Position numbers and translations under genes: made by a program. From Escherichia phage T7, in sequence record MZ375249.1: DNA of 38,166 nucleotides; one strand, given 5' to 3'. Below, piece by piece: positions 370 through 16,841 of the stretch (positions are counted from its first letter, which is position 1; each line of letters begins with the position of its first letter). The notes under the pieces are model-generated. The model did no database searches. It was not told the origin of the DNA and saw only the letters and a list, made by a program, of their open reading frames with translations.

Positions 370-392
370 TAATACAACTCACTATAGGGAGA
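370..392 (+). promoter_or_regulatory. T7 RNA polymerase promoter phiOL
   Basis: taatacaactcactatagggaga; 23-bp T7 promoter consensus with one mismatch. Confidence 0.85.
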
Positions 393-5893: not shown

Positions 5894-6973
5894 ATGATGA
5901 ACATTAAGACTAACCCGTTTAAAGCCGTGTCTTTCGTAGAGTCTGCCATTAAGAAGGCTCTGGATAACGCTGGGTATCTTATCGCTGAAATCAAGTACGA
6001 TGGTGTACGCGGGAACATCTGCGTAGACAATACTGCTAACAGTTACTGGCTCTCTCGTGTATCTAAAACGATTCCGGCACTGGAGCACTTAAACGGGTTT
6101 GATGTTCGCTGGAAGCGTCTACTGAACGATGACCGTTGCTTCTACAAAGATGGCTTTATGCTTGATGGGGAACTCATGGTCAAGGGCGTAGACTTTAACA
6201 CAGGGTCCGGCCTACTGCGTACCAAATGGACTGACACGAAGAACCAAGAGTTCCATGAAGAGTTATTCGTTGAACCAATCCGTAAGAAAGATAAAGTTCC
6301 CTTTAAGCTGCACACTGGACACCTTCACATAAAACTGTACGCTATCCTCCCGCTGCACATCGTGGAGTCTGGAGAAGACTGTGATGTCATGACGTTGCTC
6401 ATGCAGGAACACGTTAAGAACATGCTGCCTCTGCTACAGGAATACTTCCCTGAAATCGAATGGCAAGCGGCTGAATCTTACGAGGTCTACGATATGGTAG
6501 AACTACAGCAACTGTACGAGCAGAAGCGAGCAGAAGGCCATGAGGGTCTCATTGTGAAAGACCCGATGTGTATCTATAAGCGCGGTAAGAAATCTGGCTG
6601 GTGGAAAATGAAACCTGAGAACGAAGCTGACGGTATCATTCAGGGTCTGGTATGGGGTACAAAAGGTCTGGCTAATGAAGGTAAAGTGATTGGTTTTGAG
6701 GTGCTTCTTGAGAGTGGTCGTTTAGTTAACGCCACGAATATCTCTCGCGCCTTAATGGATGAGTTCACTGAGACAGTAAAAGAGGCCACCCTAAGTCAAT
6801 GGGGATTCTTTAGCCCATACGGTATTGGCGACAACGATGCTTGTACTATTAACCCTTACGATGGCTGGGCGTGTCAAATTAGCTACATGGAGGAAACACC
6901 TGATGGCTCTTTGCGGCACCCATCGTTCGTAATGTTCCGTGGCACCGAGGACAACCCTCAAGAGAAAATGTAA
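5894..6973 (+). CDS. 1.3: Gene 1.3, ATP-dependent DNA ligase (359 aa)
   Basis: Full-length ORF; KYDGVRG adenylation motif; matches T7 ligase. Confidence 0.97.
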   Translation: MMNIKTNPFKAVSFVESAIKKALDNAGYLIAEIKYDGVRGNICVDNTANSYWLSRVSKTIPALEHLNGFDVRWKRLLNDDRCFYKDGFMLDGELMVKGVDFNTGSGLLRTKWTDTKNQEFHEELFVEPIRKKDKVPFKLHTGHLHIKLYAILPLHIVESGEDCDVMTLLMQEHVKNMLPLLQEYFPEIEWQAAESYEVYDMVELQQLYEQKRAEGHEGLIVKDPMCIYKRGKKSGWWKMKPENEADGIIQGLVWGTKGLANEGKVIGFEVLLESGRLVNATNISRALMDEFTETVKEATLSQWGFFSPYGIGDNDACTINPYDGWACQISYMEETPDGSLRHPSFVMFRGTEDNPQEKM

Positions 6974-6976
6974 TCA

Positions 6977-7010
6977 CACTGGCTCACCTTCGGGTGGGCC
7001 TTTCTGCGTT
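6977..7010 (+). terminator. Early terminator TE (host RNA polymerase, rho-independent)
   Basis: GC hairpin ggctcaccttcgggtgggcc followed by tttctgcgttt directly after the ligase stop. Confidence 0.85.
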
Positions 7011-7023
7011 TATAAGGAGACAC

Positions 7024-7046
7024 TTTTACGACTCACTAAAGGAGGT
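7024..7046 (+). promoter_or_regulatory. T7 promoter phi1.5 with atypical TTTTA at -17..-13
   Basis: ttttacgactcactaaaggaggt; core matches class II promoters but upstream AT-box differs from all other promoters in the window. Confidence 0.75.
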
Positions 7047-7053
7047 ACACACC

Positions 7054-7143
7054 ATGATGTACTTAATGCCATTACTCATCGTCATTGTAGGATGCCTTGC
7101 GCTCCACTGTAGCGATGATGATATGCCAGATGGTCACGCTTAA
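7054..7143 (+). CDS. 1.5: Gene 1.5 (29 aa, unknown function)
   Basis: Short ORF MMYLMPLLIVIVGCLALHCSDDDMPDGHA downstream of phi1.5 with RBS aggaggt. Confidence 0.7.
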   Translation: MMYLMPLLIVIVGCLALHCSDDDMPDGHA

Positions 7144-7163
7144 TACGACTCACTAAAGGAGAC
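7141..7163 (+). promoter_or_regulatory. T7 promoter phi1.6
   Basis: taatacgactcactaaaggagac. Confidence 0.9.
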
Positions 7164-7168
7164 ACTAT

Positions 7169-7429
7169 ATGTTTCGACTTCATTACAACAAAAGCGTTAA
7201 GAATTTCACGGTTCGCCGTGCTGACCGTTCAATCGTATGTGCGAGCGAGCGCCGAGCTAAGATACCTCTTATTGGTAACACAGTTCCTTTGGCACCGAGC
7301 GTCCACATCATTATCACCCGTGGTGACTTTGAGAAAGCAATAGACAAGAAACGTCCGGTTCTTAGTGTGGCAGTGACCCGCTTCCCGTTCGTCCGTCTGT
7401 TACTCAAACGAATCAAGGAGGTGTTCTGA
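7169..7429 (+). CDS. 1.6: Gene 1.6 (86 aa, unknown function)
   Basis: [24 protein letters not shown]... at the position expected for T7 1.6. Confidence 0.85.
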
Positions 7430-8011
7430 TGGGACTGTTAGATGGTGAAGCCTGGGAAAAAGAAAACCCGCCAGTACAAGCAACTGGGTGTATAGCTTGC
7501 TTAGAGAAAGATGACCGTTATCCACACACCTGTAACAAAGGAGCTAACGATATGACCGAACGTGAACAAGAGATGATCATTAAGTTGATAGACAATAATG
7601 AAGGTCGCCCAGATGATTTGAATGGCTGCGGTATTCTCTGCTCCAATGTCCCTTGCCACCTCTGCCCCGCAAATAACGATCAAAAGATAACCTTAGGTGA
7701 AATCCGAGCGATGGACCCACGTAAACCACATCTGAATAAACCTGAGGTAACTCCTACAGATGACCAGCCTTCCGCTGAGACAATCGAAGGTGTCACTAAG
7801 CCTTCCCACTACATGCTGTTTGACGACATTGAGGCTATCGAAGTGATTGCTCGTTCAATGACCGTTGAGCAGTTCAAGGGATACTGCTTCGGTAACATCT
7901 TAAAGTACAGACTACGTGCTGGTAAGAAGTCAGAGTTAGCGTACTTAGAGAAAGACCTAGCGAAAGCAGACTTCTATAAAGAACTCTTTGAGAAACATAA
8001 GGATAAATGTT

Positions 8012-15952: not shown

Positions 15953-16841
15953 CCTTAAACAATTCTATGAGTTACGTGAAGGCTGCGACGACAAGGGTAT
16001 CCTTGTGATGGACGGCGACTGGCTGGTCTTCCAAGCTATGAGTGCTGCTGAGTTTGATGCCTCTTGGGAGGAAGAGATTTGGCACCGATGCTGTGACCAC
16101 GCTAAGGCCCGTCAGATTCTTGAGGATTCCATTAAGTCCTACGAGACCCGTAAGAAGGCTTGGGCAGGTGCTCCAATTGTCCTTGCGTTCACCGATAGTG
16201 TTAACTGGCGTAAAGAACTGGTTGACCCGAACTATAAGGCTAACCGTAAGGCCGTGAAGAAACCTGTAGGGTACTTTGAGTTCCTTGATGCTCTCTTTGA
16301 GCGCGAAGAGTTCTATTGCATCCGTGAGCCTATGCTTGAGGGTGATGACGTTATGGGAGTTATTGCTTCCAATCCGTCTGCCTTCGGTGCTCGTAAGGCT
16401 GTAATCATCTCTTGCGATAAGGACTTTAAGACCATCCCTAACTGTGACTTCCTGTGGTGTACCACTGGTAACATCCTGACTCAGACCGAAGAGTCCGCTG
16501 ACTGGTGGCACCTCTTCCAGACCATCAAGGGTGACATCACTGATGGTTACTCAGGGATTGCTGGATGGGGTGATACCGCCGAGGACTTCTTGAATAACCC
16601 GTTCATAACCGAGCCTAAAACGTCTGTGCTTAAGTCCGGTAAGAACAAAGGCCAAGAGGTTACTAAATGGGTTAAACGCGACCCTGAGCCTCATGAGACG
16701 CTTTGGGACTGCATTAAGTCCATTGGCGCGAAGGCTGGTATGACCGAAGAGGATATTATCAAGCAGGGCCAAATGGCTCGAATCCTACGGTTCAACGAGT
16801 ACAACTTTATTGACAAGGAGATTTACCTGTGGAGACCGTAG
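15939..16841 (+). CDS. 6: Gene 6, 5'-3' exonuclease (300 aa)
   Basis: MALLDLKQFYELREGCDDKGILVMDGDWLVFQAMSAAEFD... Confidence 0.97.
   Translation: MALLDLKQFYELREGCDDKGILVMDGDWLVFQAMSAAEFDASWEEEIWHRCCDHAKARQILEDSIKSYETRKKAWAGAPIVLAFTDSVNWRKELVDPNYKANRKAVKKPVGYFEFLDALFEREEFYCIREPMLEGDDVMGVIASNPSAFGARKAVIISCDKDFKTIPNCDFLWCTTGNILTQTEESADWWHLFQTIKGDITDGYSGIAGWGDTAEDFLNNPFITEPKTSVLKSGKNKGQEVTKWVKRDPEPHETLWDCIKSIGAKAGMTEEDIIKQGQMARILRFNEYNFIDKEIYLWRP

What the first reader, a model, noticed from the sequence alone, without database searches (positions are those of the whole stretch)
6974..7053. Gene 1.4 is absent and promoter phi1.5 carries a unique TTTTA upstream box
Seen in sequence: the TE terminator is followed within about 15 bp by the phi1.5 promoter and gene 1.5, with no ORF between. 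The promoter reads ttttacgactcactaaagg, whereas every other promoter in the window has A at -16 or -15, or both. From established knowledge, reference T7 has the 51-codon gene 1.4 here, and the offset jump is exactly 156 bp, the length of 1.4 from ATG through stop. Inference: a precise ORF excision with no flanking microhomology, which looks designed, and which replaced the -16/-15 bases of phi1.5.
Basis: partly seen in the sequence, partly recalled or inferred. Interest (0 to 1): 0.5.

Follow-up and report, generated by a model that had tools for sequence, protein, structure and literature searches.

The report
Engineered T7 gene 1.4 deletion scar
The window is a laboratory genome-reduced phage T7 in which gene 1.4 was cut out exactly from start codon to stop codon; because that stop codon is also the first three bases of the next promoter, the promoter was clipped, which is a published, man-made and well-tolerated change rather than a natural novelty.

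Summary
Against reference T7 (AY264774 7609-7764, which is V01146 7608-7763), the window lacks exactly the 156 bp of the gene 1.4 CDS. The junction lies at window 7026|7027, has no microhomology and can be placed only one way. The gene's TAA stop is also positions -17 to -15 of promoter phi1.5. The box therefore changes from TAATA to TTTTA (A>T at -16 and -15). No other of the 17 phage promoters in the window has this box.

The window is a full-length genome from the CiPGr CRISPR genome-reduction series (Yuan et al., NAR 2022). It is a sibling of clones T7_90S and T7_130S. That study's "cassette-gene" library used 2x50-bp homology arms to delete entire annotated genes.

67 deposited lab T7 genomes carry this junction or a one-base-shifted version of it. 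No natural viral contig does.

Published in-vitro data put each single change at about 68% of wild-type promoter activity. Phages carrying the clipped promoter make large plaques, or have a near-normal burst size.

Verdict: real, man-made, already known and of low interest. The one useful point is a design hazard: 7 of 17 T7 promoters share their first three bases with the upstream gene's stop codon.

The parts
5894..6973 (+). Gene 1.3 (ATP-dependent DNA ligase), intact. This is the left context of the scar; its stop codon TAA is at 6971-6973.
   Evidence: The ORF list and the annotation of the homologous records.
6981..7011 (+). Early terminator TE, intact. The 8-bp G+C-rich stem with a TTCG loop is at 6981-7000 and the interrupted T-run at 7001-7011. 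The annotated termination point (V01146 7588) maps to window 7007.
   Evidence: The fold; the V01146 annotation and sequence; identity to the reference in the alignment. The simple terminator scan does not call it because the T-run is interrupted.
7014..7019 (+). Orphan Shine-Dalgarno sequence (AAGGAG) of the deleted gene 1.4. It now has no start codon downstream at a functional spacing.
   Evidence: Sequence. In the reference the ATG of 1.4 follows it at AY264774 7609.
7026..7027 (+). Deletion junction. Window 7026 equals AY264774 7608 and window 7027 equals AY264774 7765. The 156 bp of the gene 1.4 CDS, ATG through TAA, are missing, with 0 bp microhomology.
   Evidence: The same junction is found in 63 deposited CiPGr T7 genomes.
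7024..7046 (+). Clipped class II promoter phi1.5 (-17..+6): TTTTA CGACTCACTAAA GGAGGT, with +1 at 7041. Positions -17..-15 (7024-7026) come from the old 5' flank of gene 1.4. Position -14 onward is native.
   Evidence: Promoter table, pattern search, V01146 promoter annotation.
7054..7143 (+). Gene 1.5 (29 aa), intact. Its own SD, AGGAGG, is at 7040-7045. Its TAA stop (7141-7143) is in turn -17..-15 of phi1.6.
7141..7163 (+). Promoter phi1.6, unaltered (TAATA box, +1 at 7158), 117 bp downstream of phi1.5. It provides redundancy for transcription of genes 1.6 onward.

Best explanation
This is the scar of a designed whole-ORF deletion of T7 gene 1.4, made by the CiPGr method. The method combines Cas9 cleavage inside the gene with recombination against a plasmid-borne 100-bp template. 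The template joins the 50 bp before the ATG to the 50 bp after the stop codon. Phages that recombined escape Cas9 and take over during serial transfer.

In T7 the TAA stop of gene 1.4 is also -17..-15 of promoter phi1.5. Removing 'ATG through stop' therefore put the upstream TTT in place of TAA. This gave a TTTTA box and brought the promoter to 17 bp after the TE termination point.

The specificity-determining core (-12..-1) and the initiation region are untouched, and the box is still all A/T. The promoter is therefore expected to remain active at a moderately reduced level, very roughly half. This is inferred by multiplying two published single-mutant values.

Any loss is buffered. T7 RNA polymerase transcripts from phi1.1A, 1.1B and 1.3 read through TE, and phi1.6 lies 117 bp downstream.

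Shown: the deletion boundaries, the promoter change, the lineage, and the viability of carriers. Inferred: the exact arms of the template, the size of the promoter effect, and that the clipping was unintended.
For: - The gap equals the gene 1.4 CDS to the base, has 0 bp microhomology and can be placed only one way.
- The same genome carries other deletions with a design signature. Delta-5.3 starts at the ATG and stops 30 bp before the next start codon. Delta-3.8 and Delta-4.3 spare the next gene's RBS. These have 0-3 bp microhomology. The 18-, 564- and 189-bp deletions carry 5, 1 and 9 bp of junction homology and are not ORF-aligned.
- The window shares every deletion with clones T7_90S and T7_130S and differs from them only by SNPs.
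- Early clone T7_10S still has the gene, annotated by the depositors at 7609-7764. T7_30L has only the 564-bp deletion plus Delta-1.4: 39,938 - 720 = 39,218 bp.
- The junction is present in 67 phage records, all lab T7 mutants. It is absent from IMG/VR viral contigs.
- Activity estimate from Komura 2018, file S2: wild type 142-188, -16T 114.5, -15T 115.7. A four-substitution variant with a TTTTT box still gives 15.6.
- Tolerance: T7_30L is a large-plaque clone. No CiPGr clone up to about transfer 300 shows a point change in the box. T7-B carries a one-base-shifted version of the deletion (box TTTAA) and has a burst of 197 against 224 for wild type.
Against: - The link between these accession numbers and the paper rests on clone names, the deletion pattern and dates. 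Supplementary Table S10 is not held, and accession searches of the literature found nothing.
- The main text never mentions gp1.4, so the cassette sequence itself was not seen.
- The TTTTA double mutant was not found in the stored part of the activity table. Its strength in the phi1.5 context is therefore an extrapolation.
- phi1.5 was under strong selection in another T7 evolution experiment. The change need not be neutral.
Confidence: 0.94

Rival explanations
1. A spontaneous deletion (replication slippage, illegitimate recombination or a CRISPR-escape event) that happens to remove gene 1.4.
For: The same genome does contain undesigned deletions: 564 bp in 0.4-0.6, 189 bp at 19.5 and 18 bp in the terminal repeats. 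The paper reports such escape deletions.
Against: Those spontaneous deletions carry 1-9 bp of junction homology and ignore ORF boundaries. This one has 0 bp and matches the first base of ATG and the last base of TAA. The chance that both ends land on those exact bases is roughly 1e-4 or less. It was also re-made deliberately by a second group.
Confidence: 0.03
2. A natural T7 strain polymorphism. Some wild T7-like phages lack gene 1.4, and this is one of them.
For: gp1.4 homologues are detectable in only 46 phage records. These are T7 itself plus a few close relatives. By contrast, 236 records match the surrounding ligase-to-1.7 region. So the gene is not universal in the group.
Against: The rest of the window is about 99.9% identical to T7. 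All 67 records with the junction are labelled 'Mutant ... clone'. Earlier clones of the same series still have the gene. IMG/VR contains neither the junction nor any TTTTA-box promoter with this core.
Confidence: 0.01
3. An assembly or sequencing artefact that collapses 156 bp.
For: None specific. The window does carry one private 1-bp insertion (37767) that could be a sequencing error.
Against: More than 60 independently assembled clone genomes show the identical junction. There is no repeat flanking the gap that could cause a collapse.
Confidence: 0.01

Closest known systems
CiPGr 'cassette-gene' deletions in phage T7 (Yuan, Shi, Jiang, Ma; Nucleic Acids Res 2022; PMC9825161); sibling clones T7_90S (MZ375250) and T7_130S (MZ375258)
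   Same: The Delta-1.4 junction is identical. So is the full set of larger deletions: 18 bp in both terminal repeats, 564 bp, 156 bp, 292 bp, 198 bp, 338 bp and 189 bp. The design logic of whole-gene removal with short homology arms also matches.
   Different: The window differs from each sibling by about 10-20 SNPs or 1-bp indels. Its own record was not in the searched collection. MZ375249, the gap in the accession run, is absent.
T7-B chassis phage (SMART method, mBio 2025; PMC12153263; PV223880)
   Same: A deliberate seamless 156-bp deletion of gp1.4 that also clips phi1.5. The phage is viable with a near-wild-type burst size.
   Different: The deletion is shifted by one base (AY264774 7610-7765), so the box reads TTTAA instead of TTTTA. 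It was made by Red-ccdB recombineering and genome assembly, not by Cas9 selection. The set of other deletions differs.
Wild-type T7 class II promoter phi1.5 (Dunn and Studier annotation, V01146 +1 at 7778)
   Same: Positions -14 to +6 and everything downstream are identical, including the class II -2 A and the GGAGG initiation region that doubles as the gene 1.5 ribosome-binding site.
   Different: -16 and -15 are T instead of A. The upstream flank is replaced. The promoter now lies 17 bp rather than 173 bp after the TE termination point.

Membership tests
Designed CiPGr whole-gene deletion | The deleted interval equals the annotated gene, as the cassette-gene design specifies. | tested here: met
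   The gap is AY264774 7609-7764, the gene 1.4 CDS. The depositors annotate it at the same coordinates in T7_10S.
Designed CiPGr whole-gene deletion | A template-directed junction with no microhomology. | tested here: met
   0 bp of shift ambiguity in either direction.
Designed CiPGr whole-gene deletion | The genome belongs to the serial-transfer lineage of that study. | tested here: met
   It shares all deletions with T7_90S and T7_130S. Clone names follow the paper's scheme. The undesigned gp0.3-0.6 and gp19.5 losses match the text.
Designed CiPGr whole-gene deletion | A synthesised cassette exists with 50-bp arms flanking gene 1.4, and the accession is listed in the paper's Table S10. | not testable with these tools
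   No supplementary files are held for the paper. Accession searches returned nothing.
T7 RNA polymerase promoter (23-bp, -17..+6) | A conserved specificity core at -12..-1, including GACTC at -11..-7. | tested here: met
   CGACTCACTAAA, identical to native phi1.5, with one class II difference from consensus at -2.
T7 RNA polymerase promoter (23-bp, -17..+6) | An A/T-rich -17..-13 element with the consensus TAATA. | tested here: inconclusive
   The box is still 5/5 A/T but reads TTTTA. No natural T7 promoter has this box, and no IMG/VR contig has it with this core. Each single change keeps about 68% activity in vitro. The double mutant was not found in the stored data.
T7 RNA polymerase promoter (23-bp, -17..+6) | Initiation by T7 RNA polymerase at +1 G. 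| not testable with these tools
   This needs in vitro transcription or 5'-end mapping. There is only indirect support from the viability of carriers.
Spontaneous microhomology-mediated or CRISPR-escape deletion | Short direct repeats at the junction, with boundaries unrelated to gene limits. | tested here: not met
   0 bp homology and exact CDS limits. This contrasts with the 18-, 564- and 189-bp deletions in the same genome, which carry 5, 1 and 9 bp.

The most novel reading that the evidence does not exclude
The early and near-universal spread of Delta-1.4 in the CiPGr lineage might owe something to the promoter change itself rather than to loss of the 51-aa peptide or to Cas9 escape. Delta-1.4 is already one of only two deletions in the large-plaque clone T7_30L. 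Under this reading, a weakened phi1.5 placed right after TE retunes the onset of class II transcription. phi1.5 would then be a tunable control point of the T7 programme.
Probability: 0.05. Interest if true: 0.3.

Novelty: already known. Interest (0 to 1): 0.1.

Why it matters
It matters little for biology. The feature is a published laboratory construct, not a natural variant.

It does matter for the scan, because it shows that this window is an engineered genome. Other "odd" features in the window should be read in that light.

It also illustrates a practical design hazard. In T7, 7 of 17 phage promoters share their first three bases with the stop codon of the gene upstream. Automated "delete the whole ORF" pipelines therefore alter promoters silently. 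Two independent groups did so at phi1.5, and neither group's main text, as far as I searched it, mentions the promoter change.

Tried and rejected
- Literature searches for the accession numbers (MZ375237, MZ375234, MZ375250, MZ375293, OL964739, PV223880-83) found nothing. The supplements of the CiPGr paper are not held. The accession-to-paper link therefore stays circumstantial.
- Imburgio et al. 2000, the classic single-substitution table, is not held. The PRSeq paper randomised only -12..-7. The NAR 2025 and Sci Rep 2024 papers gave no data for -16/-15. The 2026 Salis-lab preprint says only that TAAT at -17 raises the transcription rate.
- The exact TTTTA double mutant in a consensus background was not in the stored rows of Komura's table.
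- The generic terminator scan does not detect TE. I relied on the fold and on the V01146 annotation instead.
- I first read PV223880's box as a possible compensatory -14 T>A point mutation. I rejected this once the genome comparison showed a one-base-shifted deletion, with the same shift at Delta-5.3.
- I considered the T7 RNA polymerase Q184R change as a possible compensator. I set it aside because, from general knowledge, it lies outside the AT-rich recognition loop (residues 93-101) and the specificity loop (739-770).
- I asked whether the deletion creates a new ORF from the orphan RBS. There is no start codon at a usable spacing.

Full report
**What is there**

The finding's interval (window 6974-7053) lies between the ligase gene 1.3, which ends at 6973, and gene 1.5, whose ATG is at 7054. 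It contains four things:
- the intact early terminator TE, with the stem-loop at 6981-7000 and a T-rich tail to 7011;
- the ribosome-binding site that used to serve gene 1.4 (AAGGAG, 7014-7019);
- a T7 RNA polymerase promoter reading TTTTACGACTCACTAAAGGAGGT (7024-7046, +1 at 7041);
- no credible ORF.

**Comparison with the reference**

A megablast of 6400-7700 against 50,697 phage records gives about 100% identity to phage T7. Wild-type records such as AY264774 match in two pieces. Many 'Mutant Escherichia phage T7 clone' records match in one piece.

The alignment shows a single 156-bp gap spanning exactly the annotated gene 1.4 CDS. This is AY264774 7609-7764, or 7608-7763 in the canonical V01146. 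A base-by-base walk confirms the length. It also shows that the gap cannot be shifted by even one base, so there is no microhomology.

In both references the TAA stop of gene 1.4 forms positions -17..-15 of promoter phi1.5 (TAATACGACTCACTAAAGG). Removing ATG through TAA therefore substitutes the TTT that preceded the ATG. The result is -16 A>T and -15 A>T, with a new upstream flank. The TE termination point (window 7007) now lies 17 bp before the promoter instead of 173 bp.

The other 16 phage promoters in the window read TAATA (12), CAATA, CAATC, CTATT and TAATT. All have A at -15. Both of its stated refutation tests come out in its favour.

**What the window is**

The window is a complete T7 genome of 38,166 bp, with both terminal repeats. 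Against AY264774 it carries seven kinds of deletion:
- 18 bp in both terminal repeats (5-bp microhomology);
- 564 bp across genes 0.4-0.6 (1 bp);
- the 156-bp Delta-1.4 (0 bp);
- 292 bp inside 3.8 (0 bp), stopping 19 bp before the gene 4A start;
- 198 bp of 4.3 (3 bp), compatible with a start at the ATG;
- 338 bp of 5.3 (0 bp), starting at its ATG and stopping 30 bp before gene 5.5;
- 189 bp at 19.5 (9 bp).

Four of these therefore look template-designed: ORF-aligned and sparing the next gene's ribosome-binding site. The other three look spontaneous.

The window shares all of them with the deposited clones T7_90S (MZ375250) and T7_130S (MZ375258). It differs from those clones only by a few SNPs.

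The early clone T7_10S (MZ375234) is full length. It has gene 1.4 annotated by the depositors at exactly 7609-7764. T7_30L (39,218 bp) has only the 564-bp deletion and Delta-1.4.

**Source**

The clone names (transfer number plus L or S for plaque size) match Yuan et al., Nucleic Acids Res 2022 (CiPGr; PMC9825161). So do the designed and undesigned deletion pattern and the four-phage study design.

That paper describes 200-bp chip-synthesised cassettes. Each carries a spacer and a 2x50-bp homologous-recombination template, in two versions. [quoted passage not shown] The paper reports undesigned large deletions at gp0.3-0.6, gp4.3-4.7 and gp19.5. It names clones such as T7_300L. It also states that cassettes were not designed against 'likely regulatory elements'.

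I could not see Supplementary Table S10, which lists the accessions, or the oligo list. The link is therefore strong but circumstantial.

**Distribution**

The 60-bp junction occurs in 67 phage records, all laboratory T7 mutants. Sixty-three are identical. Three CiPGr clones (e.g. T7_260L) have additionally lost the 117 bp between phi1.5 and phi1.6. These two promoters share an 18-bp direct repeat. The loss leaves one hybrid promoter that keeps the TTTTA box.

The PV2238xx records come from a second study, the SMART method (mBio 2025, PMC12153263). That study re-made the deletion 'seamlessly', citing the CiPGr gene list. Their deletion is AY264774 7610-7765 and their Delta-5.3 is 16485-16822. 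Both are exactly one base off the CiPGr intervals. This is consistent with the same numbers having been applied to the reference that is one base shorter (inference). Their phi1.5 box reads TTTAA.

Neither the junction nor any TTTTACGACTCACTAWAGG promoter occurs in 2.9 million IMG/VR viral contigs.

gp1.4 is a 51-aa hydrophobic peptide of unknown function (PHROG 17655). It is detectable only in T7 and a few close relatives.

**How it works**

The mechanism of origin is shown as far as sequence can show it. Cas9 cuts in gene 1.4. Repair from the plasmid template joins the 50 bp before the ATG to the 50 bp after the TAA. The edited phage escapes further cutting and is enriched.

The functional consequence is inferred. 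From general knowledge, the -17..-13 element is read by the AT-rich recognition loop of T7 RNA polymerase through the minor groove, where A:T and T:A are hard to tell apart. Promoter specificity resides at -12..-5, which is untouched.

In Komura et al. 2018 (PLoS One; file S2), wild type gave RNA/DNA ratios of 142-188. The -16 A>T variant gave 114.5 and the -15 A>T variant 115.7. The class II -2 T>A variant gave 138-161. A four-substitution variant with a TTTTT box still gave 15.6. Retention of the original base among active variants is 80-85% at -16/-15 against 99% at -9..-7. Multiplying the single effects predicts roughly 45% of native strength. The double mutant itself was not in the stored rows.

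Carriers are clearly fit enough:
- T7_30L is a large-plaque clone.
- No point change appears in the box in any clone through about 300 transfers.
- T7-B has a burst of 197 against 224 for wild type.

Redundancy is plausible. From general knowledge, T7 RNA polymerase reads through TE from phi1.1A, 1.1B and 1.3. phi1.6 lies 117 bp downstream.

One caution applies. In a Bull-lab experiment with a re-targeted polymerase, phi1.5 was the one promoter that changed rapidly in all four lines. It can therefore matter.

**Rivals**

- A spontaneous deletion is contradicted by the exact CDS limits and the lack of microhomology. The truly spontaneous deletions in the same genome look different.
- A natural polymorphism is contradicted by the lineage and by the junction's absence from natural contigs.
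- An assembly artefact is contradicted by more than 60 independent assemblies.

**Verdict**

The observation and the interpretation are both correct. The feature is a man-made, published deletion scar. Its effect on phi1.5 is a predictable by-product of T7's stop-codon/promoter overlap. That overlap holds for 7 of 17 promoters.

Novelty: already known. Interest is low (0.1), apart from the design-hazard lesson and its value in flagging the whole window as an engineered genome.

Noticed in passing
window 370-392 (phiOL; SNP at 387): The replication/left-end promoter phiOL has +1 A>G, which changes the start region from AGGAGA to the consensus GGGAGA. Sibling clone T7_90S additionally has -11 A>G, which makes phiOL a perfect class III consensus promoter. 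This suggests selection for a stronger phiOL in this serial-transfer lineage.
   Followed up: partly
window 103|104 and 38127|38128; also 37 and 38061: An identical 18-bp deletion (GGGGATGACCCTTGGGTT, 5-bp microhomology) and an identical G>T substitution are present in both 160-bp terminal repeats. This is expected if both copies are regenerated from one during concatemer processing.
   Followed up: partly
reference AY264774 (L004), promoters phi1.3, 1.5, 1.6, 2.5, 4.3, 9 and 17; in the window e.g. 7141-7143: In 7 of 17 T7 promoters the TAA at -17..-15 is the stop codon of the upstream gene (1.2, 1.4, 1.5, 2, 4.2, 8, 16). Any ATG-through-stop excision of those genes clips a promoter.
   Followed up: yes
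L010 (PV223880) 6127|6128 and 13000|13001: The T7-B chassis phage from a second laboratory carries the Delta-1.4 and Delta-5.3 intervals shifted by exactly one base relative to the CiPGr clones. This fits coordinates having been transferred between two references that differ by 1 bp. Its phi1.5 box is TTTAA.
   Followed up: partly
L009 (MZ375283, T7_260L) about 427-460; also MZ375286 and MZ375290: Later CiPGr clones lost the 117 bp between phi1.5 and phi1.6, which removes gene 1.5. The loss apparently arose by recombination between the 18-bp promoter repeat. It leaves one hybrid promoter that keeps the clipped TTTTA box rather than phi1.6's intact TAATA.
   Followed up: partly
window 1323|1324, 10516|10517, 12323|12324, 15255|15256, 37864|37865: There are five further deletions. 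Three look designed (3.8, 4.3, 5.3): ORF-aligned and sparing the next gene's RBS. Two look spontaneous: 564 bp in 0.4-0.6, and 189 bp at 19.5 with the 9-bp repeat ATAGAGTCA.
   Followed up: partly
window 3140: T7 RNA polymerase carries Q184R (CAA>CGA), shared with sibling clones. It lies outside the known promoter-contact loops, and its significance is unknown.
   Followed up: no
window 37767: A 1-bp T insertion about 100 bp downstream of phiOR is private to this genome: it is absent from T7_90S, T7_130S, T7_10S and the reference. It could be a private mutation or a sequencing error.
   Followed up: no
window 14336, 18006, 18042, 23120, 31454, 32502, 32607, 33698: Missense changes relative to AY264774 occur in gene 5 (K404T), 7.3 (T13P, R25S), 11 (A153E), 16 (G809S, K1158R, A1193V) and 17 (K214E). 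A153E and K214E are also in the early clone T7_10S, so they are background differences in this laboratory's strain. The others are absent from T7_10S, and R25S is also absent from sibling T7_90S.
   Followed up: no
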